IMG/VR virus record: IMGVR_UViG_3300029070_000030
Length of the DNA stretch: 7,067 nt
Source: a virus
Taxonomy: Duplodnaviria > Heunggongvirae > Uroviricota > Caudoviricetes
Reading direction: 5' to 3' (one strand)
Notes under the pieces: model-generated
Database searches by the model: none
What the model saw: only the letters and a program-made list of their open reading frames with translations
What the model was told of the DNA's origin: nothing
Position numbers and translations under genes: made by a program
In this document: in pieces, positions 1,510 through 7,067 of the stretch
Position numbering within the stretch: position 1 is the stretch's first letter
How the letters are laid out: every line of letters starts with the position of its first letter

Positions 1510-1837
1510 GGGACACCTCCACCACCGGCAGACGGGCAGCAAGGGAGAGCACATAGTCACGGACAAGGGAACGGCGGGCGCTGCGTTCATCACCGGCGAC
1601 GGTGCGAAGCATACAGATACGGGGATGACGGTCTGCGCGACGGACAGCCGCAAACACAAAGACAAATTCAGGGTGTGAAGGGGTAAGGGTCGTAGCCATA
1701 AGGCAACCTCCGATAACAGCGTAAATGACGCTATCGCCGGAGTTTCCACGCTCGATGGCGATAGCCCAGACGGGGGTGGAAATACCGGCGTTATCGGAAA
1801 CCGGCCAGCCCGGAGGCTGCCCCGCCTGAGCTACCAT
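1502..1837 (-). CDS. Hypothetical protein upstream of eps (111 aa from ATG 1837; may extend to ATG 2101, 199 aa)
   Basis: Part of the 214-aa track ORF 1502..2146. The C-terminal 111 codons ([31 protein letters not shown]...LPVVEVSRA) look protein-like, and the stop TAA 1504-1502 abuts the eps GTG. An upstream in-frame ATGATGATG (2101-2093) overlaps the vis stop, which would give 199 aa, but that N-terminal stretch has odd composition and a lower-GC, palindrome-rich template. No recognisable motif. Low confidence. Confidence 0.3.
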
Positions 1838-2097
1838 TGACTCTGCGGTATAATGAGCGGACGCGGGCAGAATGCACGGAGTGCCATTTGCTCGACTGAC
1901 CACACACCACACCATAATCTGGCGCTCTGTGGCGTTGATTGCGACACAAAAAAAGACGCATGGCGCGTCATATGTCGCCGATAACATACTCGGGTTTCCA
2001 CGCCCGGCTGCCGATTTTGCGGCAGCGGAAAAACTATATCCGCAAATGCCGGAAAAAGGCAAGCCAGAAAAAGGGACTTTTTGCAGAACAGGCATCA

Positions 2098-3906: not shown

Positions 3907-4479
3907 GTGACCACAATGTCATTACAGCAGGCTTTTGAGGTCTGCCAGAATAACAAAGCGGCATGGCTGCAACGCAAAAATGAGCTGGCAGCGGCCGAAC
4001 AGGAATATCTGCGGCTTCTGTCAGGAGAAGGCAGAAACGTCAGCCGCCTGGACGAATTACGCAATATTATCGAAGTCAGAAAATGGCAGGTGAATCAGGC
4101 CGCCGGTCGTTATATTCGTTCGCATGAAGCCGTTCAGCACATCAGCATCCGCGAGCGGCTGAATGATTTTATGCAGCAGCACGGCACAGCACTGGCGGCC
4201 GCACTGGCACCGGAGCTGATGGGCTACAGTGAGCTGACGACCATTGCCCGAAACTGTGCCATACAGCGTGCCACAGATGCCCTGCGTGAAGCCCTCCTGT
4301 CCTGGCTTGCGAAGGGTGAAAAAATTAATTATTCCGCACAGGATAGCGACATTTTAACGACCATCGGATTCAGGCCTGACGCGGCTTCGGTGGATGACAG
4401 CCGTGAAAAATTCACCCCTGCGCAGAACATGATTTTTTCGCGTAAAAGTGCAGAACTGGCATCACGTCAGTCTGTGTAA
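3907..4479 (+). CDS. psu: Psu-like polarity-suppression / capsid-decoration protein, 190 aa
   Basis: 190-aa ORF; GTG 3907 start with AGGAGA 6 nt upstream (the ATG at 3916 is too far from the SD). Third gene of the sid-delta-psu late operon; the length equals P4 Psu. It is followed by a hairpin and then cos. Confidence 0.85.
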   Translation: MTTMSLQQAFEVCQNNKAAWLQRKNELAAAEQEYLRLLSGEGRNVSRLDELRNIIEVRKWQVNQAAGRYIRSHEAVQHISIRERLNDFMQQHGTALAAALAPELMGYSELTTIARNCAIQRATDALREALLSWLAKGEKINYSAQDSDILTTIGFRPDAASVDDSREKFTPAQNMIFSRKSAELASRQSV

Positions 4480-4512
4480 AATTCCCCGAAAATCCGCCTG
4501 TTTTTACTGAAA

Positions 4513-4543
4513 AAAGCCATGCATCGATAAGGTGCATGGCTTT
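4513..4543 (+). terminator. Candidate intrinsic terminator of the late operon downstream of psu
   Basis: Perfect inverted repeat AGCCATGCA (4515-4523) / TGCATGGCT (4533-4541) with a 9-nt loop, extendable by A:T pairs to ~11 bp, followed by TTT and a further TTTT at 4551-4554. The U-tract is interrupted, so efficiency is uncertain. Confidence 0.4.
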
Positions 4544-4643
4544 GCATGCGTTTTCCCGCCTCATTTCCTGCAGATTACGCCGCGCCCGACGCGGCGTGAG
4601 CGTGTCAGTGCAACTGCATTAAAACCGCCCCGCAAAGCGGGCG

Positions 4644-4662
4644 GGCGAGGCGGGGAAAGCAC
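4644..4662. other. cos site: 19-nt P2/P4-type cohesive-end sequence GGCGAGGCGGGGAAAGCAC
   Basis: Exact match at 4644-4662 to the conserved 19-nt cohesive end shared by P2, 186 and P4 (recalled from the literature). It lies between psu and int, where cos sits in P4, and is flanked by GC-rich dyads (4578-4596 and ~4625-4644). Confidence 0.8.
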
Positions 4663-4687
4663 TGCGCGCGAATGGATGATTTTCAAT

Positions 4688-5644
4688 TTAAATGCCAAGC
4701 AATAATTTTTTCTTGAAGTAGCTTTCAAAGCTATCCTTATCACCATTGAATACACCCATCAACTCATCAGAGTTTATTATTATATTCATTATTTCTCTTA
4801 AATAATTATCAAGTTTAATGCTTTCCTCTGGTAGTTTTCCAACTTTAGATGATTTTAAACTGTCACCATGAGTAACTTTAGAGCGAATGTTATAGAATGA
4901 CTTTATTTCATCAAATGTAGTGATAGGATCAAAGTTATATGGTTTTAAGAAAATAGCGACCCGCTCAGAAAGTTTATGAGAAAGTTCAGAGCTATCTGTT
5001 GAGAATAAGCTCTCAAGTGCGCTGCAGTAGTGAGATATTTTCATTGCGGGATCGAAATCTCGCTTTGCTGATCTTATAAAACTCAATGCCCTTCCATAGC
5101 GAGAATATTTTGAATCAACAAAAGAATCAAAAATAGTAGAGTTATTATTATATAGGTGAGTTTGAACTCGATGGTTTATATCTGCCCACTTAGTTAAGTC
5201 ACTCCTGTTAAATTCAACATCAATATGGCGATAACCGCTTGCCATCGTAAATAAACTTAATAGACTATTGTTCGACCATTCAGAATATGCTTTGCGATCA
5301 GTTTTATTGCAATATGCAATTTCGCAAAGCATGCCATTATCCTTGATAAACCAAGAAGTATTTATAAGCATATCTATCCACAAAAGCCAAGTCGTCAATG
5401 CAAAATTGCTTTTTGTAGACGGCTGAAAAAAATCATCTTTAAGATCGGCAAAAATTATGTGATTTGCATTGTATAAATGTTCATATTCAATGATACCAGT
5501 AAAAGGCTTAATATCTTTGTTAATTATTTTTCTAATTTTTGCCCTATCTCTTATTAGAGTAACTCCGGGAAGGAGGTCAAAATCATCGAAATTATCCCCT
5601 ATAACATTCATAAATCTTAATGTTGTGTAGAATTTAAAGTGCAT
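4688..5644 (-). CDS. Hypothetical protein, 318 aa, AT-rich hotspot cargo; function unknown (candidate anti-phage defence / abortive-infection protein)
   Basis: 318-aa ORF with no internal stops in strongly AT-rich DNA that contrasts sharply with the GC-rich P4 backbone. GGAG lies 7 nt upstream of ATG 5644, and the start overlaps the last codons of int. Located between cos and int, the variable hotspot of P4-like satellites. I recognise no family; the only motif noted is a possible Rx4H (R254...H259, NIRSKVTHGD), which is weak. Confidence 0.8.
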   Translation of the reverse strand: MHFKFYTTLRFMNVIGDNFDDFDLLPGVTLIRDRAKIRKIINKDIKPFTGIIEYEHLYNANHIIFADLKDDFFQPSTKSNFALTTWLLWIDMLINTSWFIKDNGMLCEIAYCNKTDRKAYSEWSNNSLLSLFTMASGYRHIDVEFNRSDLTKWADINHRVQTHLYNNNSTIFDSFVDSKYSRYGRALSFIRSAKRDFDPAMKISHYCSALESLFSTDSSELSHKLSERVAIFLKPYNFDPITTFDEIKSFYNIRSKVTHGDSLKSSKVGKLPEESIKLDNYLREIMNIIINSDELMGVFNGDKDSFESYFKKKLLLGI

Positions 5645-6830
5645 TATATATCTCCATATTCATTTTCGGATATAATCTATCACTATACCATTGCATCATT
5701 TCTTTCCTTTTCTCTAAATATTGTGCATGGTTATATGTGCCTCGAATTGTGTTTTTATCTACATGAGCTAATTGCATTTCAATCCATACACTATTGAATC
5801 CTTTTTCATGCAAAATGGTTGACATGGTATGCCTGAACCCATGACCTGTTGCACGACCTTTGTAGCCTAATAACTCAATCACCTGTGTCACACTTTCTTT
5901 AGATATAGGTTTACTACGATTATTTCTACCTATAAAAATGTAGGGATAATGGCCGCTAATAGGCTTGAGCTGTTTAAAAAGGGCAATCACCTGAGTAGAT
6001 AGAGGTACAATATGAGGTCTGCGCATTTTCATCCTTTCAGCTGGAATCTCCCATATTCCTTTCTCAAGGTCAACTTCATCCCACGTGGCAAAGCGCATTT
6101 CCTGAGTTCTTACGCCAGTTAACATGACAATTTTTGTCGCATTTTTAGTGATGATGCTTCCGGTATACGCTTCAAGATCTTGAATAAAATAAGGCAATTC
6201 TTCGGCAGATAAAAATGGGTGGTGTTTTTGCTTAGGAACGGCCAGAGCGATAGCTAAATCAGGTGCTGGATTGTATTCAGCGCGGCCAGTGATGATCGCG
6301 TAGCGAAACACCTCTCCGCATCGTTGACGTACTTTTCTGGTTTTCTCCAACGCTCCACGTTTTTCTATGCGTTTAAGAACTTCAAGCAGTTCTAGGGGTT
6401 TAATTTCAGCTATTGGCCGTTTACCAATGAAAGGAAAAACATCCTGTTCAAATGTTTTAATAATTTCTTCGCGATAAGCTAAAGTCCAGCGATCTGCTTT
6501 TGTTGCATGCCATTCTCTGCTAACGGCCTCAAAAGAGTTTTCAGTTGATAATTTCTGAGCAATTTTCTGAGCCTTACGTTCTTCTACTGGATCAATGCCG
6601 TTTGCAACCTGTTTACGTGCCGTATCGCGTTTCTCACGTGCTTCCGCGAGGCTTACAAGATCGTAACTACCAAATGACATTAACCGCGCTTTACCGGCAA
6701 AACGAAAGCGGAATCGCCATCCCTTTGAGCCGTCTGGATTGATGAGTAATGACAAGCCTTGCCCATCATTCATTGTATATGGTTTGTCTTGTGGTTTTGC
6801 GCGTTTGATTTGTATATCGGTTAGAGCCAT
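5634..6830 (-). CDS. int: P4-type tyrosine integrase (site-specific recombinase), selC-specific
   Basis: 398-aa ORF beginning MALTDIQIKRAKPQDKPYTMNDGQGLSLLINPDGSKGWRFRFRF, the characteristic N-terminal arm-binding domain of P4-family integrases. C-terminal catalytic region has HGFRHT...LAHVDKNTIRGTYNHAQY (H-x-x-R ... H ... Y). It lies directly downstream of, and co-oriented with, a tRNA gene 3' end. Confidence 0.9.
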   Translation of the reverse strand: MALTDIQIKRAKPQDKPYTMNDGQGLSLLINPDGSKGWRFRFRFAGKARLMSFGSYDLVSLAEAREKRDTARKQVANGIDPVEERKAQKIAQKLSTENSFEAVSREWHATKADRWTLAYREEIIKTFEQDVFPFIGKRPIAEIKPLELLEVLKRIEKRGALEKTRKVRQRCGEVFRYAIITGRAEYNPAPDLAIALAVPKQKHHPFLSAEELPYFIQDLEAYTGSIITKNATKIVMLTGVRTQEMRFATWDEVDLEKGIWEIPAERMKMRRPHIVPLSTQVIALFKQLKPISGHYPYIFIGRNNRSKPISKESVTQVIELLGYKGRATGHGFRHTMSTILHEKGFNSVWIEMQLAHVDKNTIRGTYNHAQYLEKRKEMMQWYSDRLYPKMNMEIYNAL

Positions 6831-6992
6831 GTGTATAACTGAAAACTGCGTATGAAGATTCTATACACATTACTATACATATTTTTCGCGGATTCAGGGA
6901 GATGGTCTCGGACTATTACGGACAAGATGATTATTCATCTTATTGAATATAAAGTATTTTATGGAGTATCTCGGAACTGGCTGGATGAAGTT

Positions 6993-7067
6993 TGGCGGAA
7001 GATCACAGGAGTCGAACCTGCCCGGGACCGCTGGCGGCCCCAACTGGATTTGAAGTCCAGCCGCCTC
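6993..7067 (-). tRNA. selC: tRNA-Sec (selC), 3' 75 nt including CCA; 5' ~20 nt lie beyond the window end
   Basis: Reverse complement of 6993-7067 reads GAGGCGGCTGGACTTCAAATCCAGTTGGGGCCGCCAGCGGTCCCGGGCAGGTTCGACTCCTGTGATCTTCCGCCA, which matches my recollection of positions 21-95 of E. coli selC (anticodon loop CTTCAAATC with UCA, long variable arm, T-arm GGTTCGACTCC, 3' CCA). Confidence 0.9.

What the first reader, a model, noticed from the sequence alone, without database searches (positions are those of the whole stretch)
5634..5644. Cargo start codon lies inside the last codons of int: cargo appears wired as the distal gene of the int transcript
The cargo ATG (5644-5642, minus strand) overlaps the int 3' end (int stop at 5636-5634), with GGAG 7 nt upstream inside int coding sequence. 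There is no intergenic space for an independent promoter unless one is embedded in the int 3' end. This implies the cargo is expressed with the integrase in the prophage state, as expected for a gene that must act while the satellite is lysogenic.
Basis: partly seen in the sequence, partly recalled or inferred. Interest (0 to 1): 0.5.

Follow-up and report, generated by a model that had tools for sequence, protein, structure and literature searches.

The report
Promoterless defence gene abutting satellite integrase
In a P4-like phage satellite sitting next to the E. coli selC tRNA gene, a candidate anti-phage HEPN nuclease gene starts inside the last codons of the integrase gene with no room for its own promoter, a compact layout that turns out to be common among such satellites and is ordinary operon architecture rather than a new mechanism.

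Summary
The cargo ATG is at 5644-5642, giving an 11-nt overlap, with GGAG at 5655-5652 and a 7-nt spacer. Family-wide N-terminal conservation shows this ATG is the true start.

The window is a P4-like satellite beside selC. The cargo occupies the known psu-int defence hotspot. It is a 318-aa Apea-like HEPN protein that Rousset et al. 2022 already list as a hotspot system.

The cassette is only SD + ORF + about 25 nt, spliced at the int stop on one side and at cos on the other. The overlap itself is incidental: int has no stop at the junction and reads into the cassette leader. Orthologous cassettes show gaps of -11, -11, +14 and +17 nt.

In a survey of 130 satellites, 41 of 73 distinct int-proximal genes are co-oriented with int, and 28 of those start within 40 nt of the int stop. 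None has a hairpin in the gap, whereas convergent cassettes usually do.

Co-transcription from upstream of int is therefore the most economical reading, but it is not shown. An internal promoter cannot be excluded. P4-family integrases repress their own promoters, so "expressed with int in the prophage" remains unproven.

The parts
6997..7067 (-). 3' part of tRNA-Sec (selC), cut by the window end; attL side of the integrated satellite. It is on the same strand as int and the cargo.
   Evidence: Rfam RF01852, 51.5 bits; RefSeq tRNA-Sec annotation in L001; identical to K-12 selC up to the CCA end.
6831..6996 (-). selC-int spacer, the presumed location of the int promoter and Int arm sites (not demonstrated). 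No terminator-like motif and no consensus promoter were detected.
   Evidence: By analogy with P4, whose attP arm repeats flank the int start.
5634..6830 (-). int, a P4-family tyrosine integrase of 398 aa.
   Evidence: Pfam Arm-DNA-bind_3, Phage_int_M and Phage_integrase; NCBIfam PRK09692.
5637..5669 (-). Cassette-encoded C-terminal tail of Int (PKMNMEIYNAL). It lies beyond the conserved end ...QWYSDRLY (the Y codon ends at 5670).
   Evidence: Alignments A1 and A2. Related ints stop at or within 2-3 codons of LY. The tail differs at 4 of 11 residues in the 85% variant (PKFNMEGSYAL).
5652..5655 (-). GGAG Shine-Dalgarno of the cargo, 7 nt before its ATG, inside int codons M-E.
   Evidence: SD-like motifs sit at the same place in the orthologues (GGAG, GGGA, AAGG).
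5634..5644 (-). 11-nt int/cargo overlap. The int stop TAA (5636-5634) is formed by cargo codons 3-4 (TTT AAA).
4688..5644 (-). Cargo: a 318-aa protein with an N-terminal alpha/beta domain and a C-terminal HEPN domain (WP_001710916).
4868..4885 (-). Codons for R254-S-K-V-T-H259, the Rx4H HEPN catalytic motif.
   Evidence: R254 and H259 are invariant in alignment A3 of 25 homologues.
4663..4687 (-). 25-nt cassette 3' tail between the cargo stop and cos.
4644..4662 (+). cos cohesive-end sequence GGCGAGGCGGGGAAAGCAC.
   Evidence: Read. The same 19-mer is in the P4 and P4-like clones of Rousset 2022 Table S2.
4621..4644 (-). GC-rich hairpin followed by TTTT on the int/cargo strand, immediately beyond cos. 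It is a conserved cos flank and a candidate terminator for leftward transcripts (function not shown).
   Evidence: Terminator scan. RNA fold gives a 9-bp GC stem followed by UUUU.
3907..4479 (+). psu, convergent with the cargo; the other border of the hotspot.
   Evidence: Pfam Psu, E = 1.7e-88.

Best explanation
The window is the int-proximal end of a P4-like satellite integrated at selC. The slot between cos/psu and int is the known variable defence hotspot. Here it holds a minimal cassette (about 4663-5669): roughly 20 nt of leader with an SD, a 318-aa short Apea-like HEPN protein (probably an abortive-infection RNase), and 25 nt of tail.

The cassette is joined within a codon or two of the natural int stop. 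Int therefore has no stop of its own and reads 11 codons into the leader, ending at a TAA made by cargo codons 3-4. That is all the overlap is.

The cassette brings no promoter and nothing terminates between the genes. The cargo is therefore most likely transcribed as the distal gene of a bicistronic int-cargo mRNA that starts upstream of int. The source would be the int promoter, possibly with read-through from selC. The transcript would end at the hairpin plus U-run next to cos. The cargo would be translated from its own exposed SD, with possible help from ribosomes terminating 8 nt downstream of its AUG.

Shown: the anatomy, the true start codon, the HEPN fold and motif, the cassette boundaries, and the recurrence of the layout. 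Inferred: co-transcription, the terminator function, the anti-phage role, and the expression level. P4-family integrases repress their own promoters. The expected output is thus a low, self-limited level in the lysogen, with a burst when the satellite enters a cell that has no Int. That would suit a toxic effector.
For: Anatomy and start codon.

Cassette boundaries: int homology among selC satellites with different cargos (SIR2; DEAD helicase) ends at ...LY, and those cargos begin 12 and 19 nt later with only an SD in between. cos lies 25 nt after the cargo stop.

Orthologous cassettes always sit directly after int, at -11, -11, +14 and +17 nt. Homologues outside satellites have leaders of 62-320 nt.

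Survey of 130 Psu-anchored loci: 28 of 41 distinct co-oriented cassettes start within 40 nt of the int stop and 12 overlap it. 0 of 34 tight junctions contain a hairpin, against 24 of 38 convergent junctions.

No promoter-like site above chance in the int 3' end. Terminator-like hairpin after the cargo. Unstructured junction RNA, z = +0.24.

Anecdotal experimental hint from Rousset 2022 Table S2: three tight-junction systems (gaps 3, 27 and about 29 nt), cloned with only about 90-125 nt of the int 3' end, showed no defence. Two of three systems with leaders of at least 55 nt were active, and the third became active under Ptet.

Int autorepression: PMC2951348 and PMC7286903.
Against: There are no transcript data. 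The consensus and PWM scans are insensitive: they find no int promoter either, and the positive control (long-leader cassettes) beats the negative control only at p = 0.08. AT-rich foreign DNA is known to contain many weak intragenic promoters. One decent internal site exists about 400 nt upstream of the cargo ATG (6073-6045, TTGACC-17-GAGATT, 11.7 bits). If full-length int mRNA is scarce in lysogens, as I recall for P4 but could not verify, an int-dependent cargo would be nearly silent in the prophage. That would be odd for a defence gene. The inactive clones in Rousset 2022 could have failed for many other reasons (n = 6). The survey uses heuristic gene calls and a sample dominated by E. coli-like elements.
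Confidence: 0.55

Rival explanations
1. An internal promoter embedded in the int coding sequence (3' end or mid-gene) drives the cargo independently of the int promoter. The abutment only reflects where cassettes recombine.
For: The int 3' end and the cargo are AT-rich (GC 0.29-0.37), a composition that often yields intragenic promoters (general knowledge). A TTGACC-17-GAGATT site scores 11.7 bits at 6073-6045. Many P4-family ints carry a perfect TATAAT at the catalytic Tyr codons (T-Y-N-H), including the 85% variant L005. The PWM method also misses the int promoter itself, so negatives carry little weight.
Against: In the window the TATAAT is TATAAC, which loses the critical T6. The best site within 200 nt of the ATG scores 7.1 bits. 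The last 298 nt of int score no better than 82% of shuffles. Int 3' ends facing co-oriented tight cassettes are no richer in promoter-like sites than those facing convergent cassettes (p = 0.25). Three tight-junction systems cloned with 90-125 nt of the int 3' end were inactive.
Confidence: 0.25
2. Transcription of int and cargo in the lysogen comes mainly from read-through of the strong selC tRNA promoter, because integration places int directly downstream of selC on the same strand.
For: selC, int and the cargo are co-directional. No terminator-like motif lies between the tRNA 3' end (about 6997) and the int ATG at 6830.
Against: This is purely positional. Rho-dependent termination in the untranslated 166-nt spacer and tRNA 3' processing could uncouple the transcripts. 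The K-12 site could not serve as an empty-site control because it carries an int remnant, yicT.
Confidence: 0.15
3. The 11-nt overlap is a selected translational-coupling device that ties cargo synthesis to Int translation.
For: Overlaps of -4, -8, -11 and -13 nt recur at int-cargo junctions (12 of 41 co-oriented clusters). The int stop lies 8 nt downstream of the cargo AUG, within range of termination-reinitiation (general knowledge).
Against: Orthologous cassettes have +14 and +17 nt gaps. The Int tail created by the overlap is poorly conserved (4 of 11 residues differ at 85% DNA identity). The cargo has its own SD at ideal spacing. The junction RNA is unstructured, so the SD is not masked.
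Confidence: 0.1
4. The annotated cargo start is wrong. The real start is M12 (ATG 5611-5609), so there is no overlap and a 22-nt gap.
For: An in-frame ATG exists at codon 12.
Against: Residues 2-11 are conserved across the family, and homologues begin at the same position. There is no SD before M12, whereas GGAG lies 7 nt before M1.
Confidence: 0.03

Closest known systems
Defence hotspot between psu/cos and int of P4-like satellites (Rousset et al. 2022, PMC9122126; 2026 follow-up PMC13586616)
   Same: Same position (cos-adjacent, between psu and int) and same P4 core genes. The cargo varies between otherwise similar satellites. This exact protein (WP_001710916) is listed in their Table S1A as a single-gene 'HEPN_Apea' system.
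   Different: The passages of those papers that my term searches returned (promoter, transcription, operon, orientation, intergenic and similar terms) describe content and turnover, not how cassettes are joined to int. They say systems occur in either orientation and were cloned 'with native promoters'. Here the cassette has no room for one.
int-cII arrangement of P4 itself (NC_001609)
   Same: A hotspot gene lies downstream of int on the same strand, followed by an annotated terminator.
   Different: P4 has a 66-nt int-cII gap. In my survey all 8 co-oriented cassette clusters next to a P4-type int have gaps of at least 87 nt. The selC-type and two other int families mostly have gaps of 40 nt or less.
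Integron gene cassettes expressed from the Pc promoter at the integrase gene
   Same: Promoterless, exchangeable single-gene cassettes placed next to a tyrosine recombinase gene and dependent on a platform promoter. V. cholerae homologues of this cargo lie among small cassette-like genes (DUF645, DUF3709), which looks like the chromosomal integron array; in L175 one sits 253 nt from a divergent integrase (the integron identification is my inference).
   Different: No attC-like or other flanking repeats. The cassette is co-directional with int and downstream of it, rather than divergent. Exchange presumably uses homologous recombination between the conserved int 3' end and cos/psu (inference).
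Lambda cI-rexA-rexB: defence genes riding on a lysogeny transcript (general knowledge)
   Same: An abortive-infection function is placed distal to a prophage maintenance or establishment gene, so that it needs no promoter of its own.
   Different: The upstream gene here is the integrase, whose promoter is autorepressed, not the repressor gene that is actively transcribed in lysogens.
ApeA HEPN defence proteins (bioRxiv 10.64898/2026.01.26.701840)
   Same: HEPN fold with an invariant Rx4H motif. Some sources label homologues 'Apea-like HEPN'.
   Different: The alignment used to define the ApeA family in that preprint spans residues 21-557 of Ec1ApeA, so Ec1ApeA is at least 557 aa; the cargo is 318 aa. 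It does not reach Pfam PF18739 or any PADLOC model. Only 1 of 120 listed homologues carries a precomputed PF18739 hit.

Membership tests
P4-like satellite psu-int defence hotspot | Element carries P4 core genes (psu, delta/ogr, sid, alpA/vis, epsilon region, alpha primase, CI/C4 immunity RNA) | tested here: met
   Pfam Psu, Ogr_Delta, AlpA and DUF5375; PHROG sid-like match; primase and Icd-like annotations in L001; Rfam C4, isrK and c4-a1b1.
P4-like satellite psu-int defence hotspot | Variable locus lies between psu and int, next to cos | tested here: met
   psu 3907-4479, cos 4644-4662, cargo 4688-5644, int 5634-6830.
P4-like satellite psu-int defence hotspot | Different cargo in otherwise homologous satellites | tested here: met
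   SIR2 in L002 and DEAD helicase plus a hypothetical protein in L003, at the same selC site. 73 distinct int-proximal genes in 130 loci.
P4-like satellite psu-int defence hotspot | Cargo protects against phage | not testable with these tools
   Only inferred from the HEPN fold and the location.
ApeA (HEPN_Apea, PF18739) | HEPN domain with Rx4-6H catalytic motif | tested here: met
ApeA (HEPN_Apea, PF18739) | Sequence match to the family model | tested here: not met
   No Pfam, NCBIfam or PADLOC hit at E <= 0.01-0.1. Rousset's table labels it HEPN_Apea; I did not check by what method.
ApeA (HEPN_Apea, PF18739) | Size of about 560 aa or more, large ring oligomer, ligand pocket, tRNA anticodon cleavage | tested here: not met
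   Size is not met: 318 aa against an Ec1ApeA alignment spanning residues 21-557. Oligomer, ligand binding and activity cannot be tested here.
Bacterial operon pair (co-transcribed adjacent genes) | Same strand, with a distance below about 20-30 nt or an overlap | tested here: met
   -11 nt.
Bacterial operon pair (co-transcribed adjacent genes) | No terminator between the genes | tested here: met
   0 of 34 tight junctions in the survey contain a hairpin.
Bacterial operon pair (co-transcribed adjacent genes) | No promoter serving the distal gene alone | tested here: inconclusive
   No site above chance, but the method has low power and also misses the int promoter.
Bacterial operon pair (co-transcribed adjacent genes) | A single mRNA spans both genes | not testable with these tools
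   Needs RNA-seq, RT-PCR or Northern blot on a lysogen.
Integron cassette system | attC recombination site at the cassette end, attI next to the integrase | tested here: not met
   Only chance-level short repeats around the cassette.

The most novel reading that the evidence does not exclude
P4-like satellites that use non-P4-type integrases (selC-type and others) work as an integron-like expression platform. Promoterless defence cassettes, trimmed to SD + ORF, are swapped by recombination exactly at the int stop codon and depend on the autoregulated int transcript. This would give a burst of defence expression when the satellite enters a naive cell and a low, self-limited level in the lysogen. 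It would also explain why some hotspot systems are inactive when cloned with only the int 3' end as their 'native promoter'.
Probability: 0.35. Interest if true: 0.5.

Novelty: new member of a known kind. Interest (0 to 1): 0.3.

Why it matters
If the tight-junction cassettes really depend on transcription coming through int, there are three consequences.

1. The expression of many satellite-borne defence genes would be set by integrase autoregulation, and perhaps by the tRNA promoter upstream. That links defence level to establishment and excision of the satellite.

2. Functional screens that clone hotspot systems with a short upstream fragment would systematically under-express this class and miss active systems.

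3. The precise splice points (the int stop on one side, cos on the other) define the homology arms used to swap cassettes. This is useful for predicting and engineering hotspot content.

None of this changes the current view of P4 hotspots. It refines it.

Tried and rejected
- **Alternative start at M12:** rejected by N-terminal conservation.
- **Pfam, NCBIfam and PADLOC on the cargo:** no hits. PHROGs gave only a weak unknown-function hit.
- **Genome-contig scan with a single Psu protein:** only 6 loci. I rebuilt the query as an alignment and used the viral and metagenome collections instead.
- **First start-picking heuristic in the survey:** it mis-called several loci, including the window's twin L095. 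It was replaced. Two clusters (L086, L117) are still mis-called as gaps above 300.
- **PWM promoter comparison of tight, long-leader and convergent classes:** no significant differences and a weak positive control, so it is inconclusive.
- **K-12 selC as an empty-site control for tRNA read-through:** unusable, because the site carries an int remnant, yicT.
- **Piazzolla et al. 2006 (P4 int transcripts in lysogens):** not held in the library, and citing papers give only the autorepression statement.
- **Search for attC-like or duplicated flanks of the cassette:** nothing beyond chance.
- **Structure-mediated translational coupling:** the junction RNA is unstructured.

Full report
**1. Observation**

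On the minus strand the window reads ...TAT CCG AAA ATG AAT ATG GAG ATA TAT AAT GCA CTT TAA.
- The int ORF (5634-6830, 398 aa) ends at TAA 5636-5634.
- The next ORF (4688-5644, 318 aa) starts at ATG 5644-5642, so the two overlap by 11 nt.
- GGAG lies at 5655-5652, 7 nt before the ATG.

The ORF table and the RefSeq annotation of a 100%-identical E. coli chromosome segment agree with this. The only other candidate start, M12, is excluded. Residues 2-11 are conserved across 25 aligned homologues down to about 30% identity, and the family is uniformly 315-320 aa with near-full coverage.

**2. What the locus is**

The window carries these features on the given strands:
- a sid-like gene, delta/ogr and psu on the plus strand
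- alpA, DUF5375 and other P4 left-operon ORFs on the minus strand
- the P4-type immunity RNAs C4, isrK and c4-a1b1 at 1754-2039
- the 3' part of tRNA-Sec at 6997-7067

It is a P4-like satellite integrated at selC. The 19-nt cos sequence GGCGAGGCGGGGAAAGCAC is at 4644-4662, 25 nt beyond the cargo stop. The cargo therefore fills the cos-adjacent slot between psu and int. Rousset et al. 2022 described that slot as a hotspot of anti-phage systems. Their Table S1A lists this very protein, WP_001710916, as a single-gene 'HEPN_Apea' system.

Base composition supports foreign origin:
- GC is about 0.55 in the P4 core.
- GC is 0.40-0.44 in most of int.
- GC is 0.29-0.37 from the int 3' end through the cargo.

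**3. The cargo**

No Pfam, NCBIfam or PADLOC model matches the cargo. A database search finds 126 homologues, some labelled 'Apea-like HEPN' by their sources. The alignment has an invariant R254...H259 (Rx4H) motif and other invariant acidic and basic residues.

The ApeA family alignment in the preprint spans residues 21-557 of Ec1ApeA, so ApeA is roughly twice the size of the cargo. ApeA forms ring oligomers that cleave tRNA anticodon loops. The cargo is 318 aa and fails the family model. I call it a short Apea-like HEPN protein and a probable abortive-infection RNase, not an ApeA. Its activity is inferred only.

**4. Where the cassette begins and ends**

Two other selC satellites carry a SIR2 protein (L002) or a DEAD helicase plus a hypothetical protein (L003) in the same slot, on the int strand. 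The three int genes align up to ...MMQWYSD(K/R)LY and diverge immediately after that point.
- In L002, int stops there and SIR2 starts 12 nt later behind a GAGG.
- In L003, int ends LYPN* and the helicase starts 19 nt later behind AAGGA.
- In the window there is no stop at that point. Int reads on as PKMNMEIYNAL through the cassette's SD and ATG.

The same HEPN cassette was found in three further satellites:
- An E. coli lineage with 85% DNA identity keeps the -11 overlap, with the tail PKFNMEGSYAL.
- Two metagenomic or assembly loci with 72-73% protein identity have gaps of +17 and +14 nt, and an int that ends at LY* or a few codons later.

The roughly 20-nt leader is homologous in all four, so it belongs to the cassette. 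At the other end, only 15-25 nt separate the cargo stop from the conserved cos flank. No flanking repeats were found.

The overlap therefore arises because the cassette is spliced at the int stop and the first in-frame stop happens to be formed by cargo codons 3-4. The extra Int tail is poorly conserved. Tight abutment is conserved, but the overlap is not.

**5. How general the layout is**

I anchored on Psu and collected loci from the viral and metagenome collections plus those already in hand. In 130 of them I located int, its stop, cos and the first hotspot gene. They contain 73 distinct int-proximal genes, of which 41 are co-oriented with int (78 loci) and 32 are convergent (52 loci). This fits the published statement that systems occur in either orientation.

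Gaps among the 41 co-oriented clusters:

| Gap from int stop to cargo start | Clusters |
|---|---|
| Overlap (six at -4, two at -8, one each at -11, -13, -14, -29) | 12 |
| 0 to 12 nt | 8 |
| 19 to 40 nt | 8 |
| 55 to 167 nt | 11 |
| Above 300 nt (mis-called starts) | 2 |

Int family matters:
- All 8 clusters next to a P4-type int have gaps of at least 87 nt. P4's own int-cII gap is 66 nt.
- 28 of 33 clusters next to other int families have gaps of 40 nt or less.

Hairpins were counted on a slightly finer split of distinct junctions:

| Junction class | Junctions with a perfect GC-containing hairpin |
|---|---|
| Convergent (between int stop and cargo stop) | 24 of 38 |
| Co-oriented, gap of 40 nt or less | 0 of 34 |
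| Co-oriented, gap above 40 nt | 4 of 16 |

Outside satellites, cargo homologues are stand-alone genes with leaders of 62-320 nt. V. cholerae copies lie among small cassette-like genes, which looks like the chromosomal integron array. Fusion to int is therefore a feature of the satellite hotspot, not of the gene family.

Caveats: the gene calls are heuristic, and the sample is the best 80 Psu hits per collection, so it is dominated by E. coli-like elements.

**6. Is there a promoter for the cargo alone?**

- The consensus scan finds no promoter-like site on the minus strand between 5645 and 7067. The nearest sites lie inside the cargo.
- A PWM scan gives 7.1 bits for the best site in the 200 nt before the ATG (TTTAGA-17-TGCAAT, which lacks the key -10 A). 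On the same scale lacP1 scores 7.9 and lacUV5 11.7.
- In the last 298 nt of int the maximum is 8.3 bits, and 82% of shuffles do at least as well.
- Across the survey, int 3' ends before tight cassettes are no richer in such sites than int 3' ends facing convergent cassettes (p = 0.25). The positive control, long-leader cassettes, is only marginally higher (p = 0.08).
- The scan also finds no int promoter upstream of int.

So the test is weak. It gives no support for an embedded promoter but cannot exclude one. A better site (11.7 bits) lies mid-gene at 6073-6045.

**7. Downstream and translational signals**

Just beyond cos on the int strand lies a GC-rich hairpin followed by TTTT (4644-4621). 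This is a conserved cos flank that looks like an intrinsic terminator for leftward transcripts. The junction RNA is unstructured (z = +0.24), so the SD is accessible. The cargo can be translated on its own. Reinitiation by ribosomes terminating 8 nt downstream of its AUG is possible but is not required.

**8. Experimental hints from the literature**

Rousset et al. cloned hotspot systems 'with native promoters'. For int-side systems the inserts begin only about 30-125 nt before the int stop.
- Three systems with tight junctions showed no defence: NOD-2 (gap 3), SIR2 M605 (gap 27) and NOD-1 (gap about 29).
- Two of the three systems with leaders of at least 55 nt were active: Hydrolase+3TM (55 nt) and RT-nitrilase. 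The third, PARIS-1, became active under Ptet.

This fits dependence on transcription through int, but n = 6 and other causes are possible.

On int expression:
- P4 Int and Vis negatively regulate int (PMC2951348).
- I recall that Piazzolla et al. 2006 detected full-length int mRNA only after infection and not in lysogens. The paper is not held, so this remains unverified.

**9. Conclusion**

The most economical model is a promoterless SD+ORF cassette read as the distal gene of a transcript that starts upstream of int and ends at the cos-adjacent hairpin (confidence about 0.55).

Its expected behaviour is low, Int-limited expression in the lysogen and a burst on entry into a naive cell. That is plausible for a toxic HEPN effector.

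Rivals are an internal promoter in int (about 0.25), selC read-through as the main source (about 0.15), selected translational coupling (about 0.1) and a wrong start codon (about 0.03).

The element, the hotspot and the protein are already catalogued. The tight int-cargo splice and its frequency are a modest refinement. In the passages my term searches returned from the two hotspot papers I did not find it described.

Noticed in passing
window 1754-2039 (minus strand): Rfam finds the P4-type immunity set: C4 antisense RNA (1754-1841, 77.9 bits), isrK (1949-2026) and the c4-a1b1 target element (1987-2039). They lie inside the ORF that RefSeq calls 'Icd-like'.
   Followed up: no
window 6831-7067; L174 (K-12) 423-757: selC, int and the cargo are all on one strand, with no terminator-like motif between the tRNA end and int. 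Read-through from the tRNA promoter is therefore possible. K-12's 'empty' selC site carries yicT, which aligns to the start of this int and so is an old integrase remnant.
   Followed up: partly
window about 5728-5733 (minus strand); many survey loci: The codons of the catalytic-tyrosine motif T-Y-N-H (ACT TAT AAT CAT) give a perfect TATAAT -10 hexamer in many P4-family int genes, about 85 nt before the int stop. The window has TATAAC, while the 85% variant L005 has TATAAT. I could not tell whether this ever acts as a promoter.
   Followed up: partly
survey loci L014-L173: Gap length depends on int family. All 8 co-oriented cassette clusters beside a P4-type (leuX-type) int have leaders of at least 87 nt. 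28 of 33 clusters beside selC-type and two more distant int families have leaders of 40 nt or less.
   Followed up: partly
survey loci, convergent class: When the first hotspot gene is convergent with int, the short spacer between the two stop codons usually holds a perfect GC-containing hairpin (24 of 38 junctions). It looks like a shared bidirectional terminator.
   Followed up: partly
L175-L177 (Vibrio cholerae): Homologues of the cargo (46% identity) lie among small cassette-like genes (DUF645, DUF3709), which looks like the V. cholerae chromosomal integron array. In L175 the gene sits 253 nt from a divergent integrase gene.
   Followed up: no
L001 352-1983 (outside the window, beyond the alpha primase): The same satellite carries a second defence-type gene at its other end, annotated as a TIR domain-containing anti-phage reverse transcriptase.
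   Followed up: no
L006 6040-7134: In one orthologous satellite the HEPN cassette is followed by a convergent DUF5677 gene, with a hairpin between them. The same cassette can therefore be combined with a second one in the hotspot. A DUF5677 gene also lies near the V. cholerae homologue in L175.
   Followed up: no
window 4507-4556 (plus strand): A hairpin plus T-run (GCCATGCA...TGCATGGC TTTGCATGCGTTTT) follows psu. The terminator scan missed it because its loop is 9 nt. It is conserved in the P4-like clones of Rousset Table S2.
   Followed up: no
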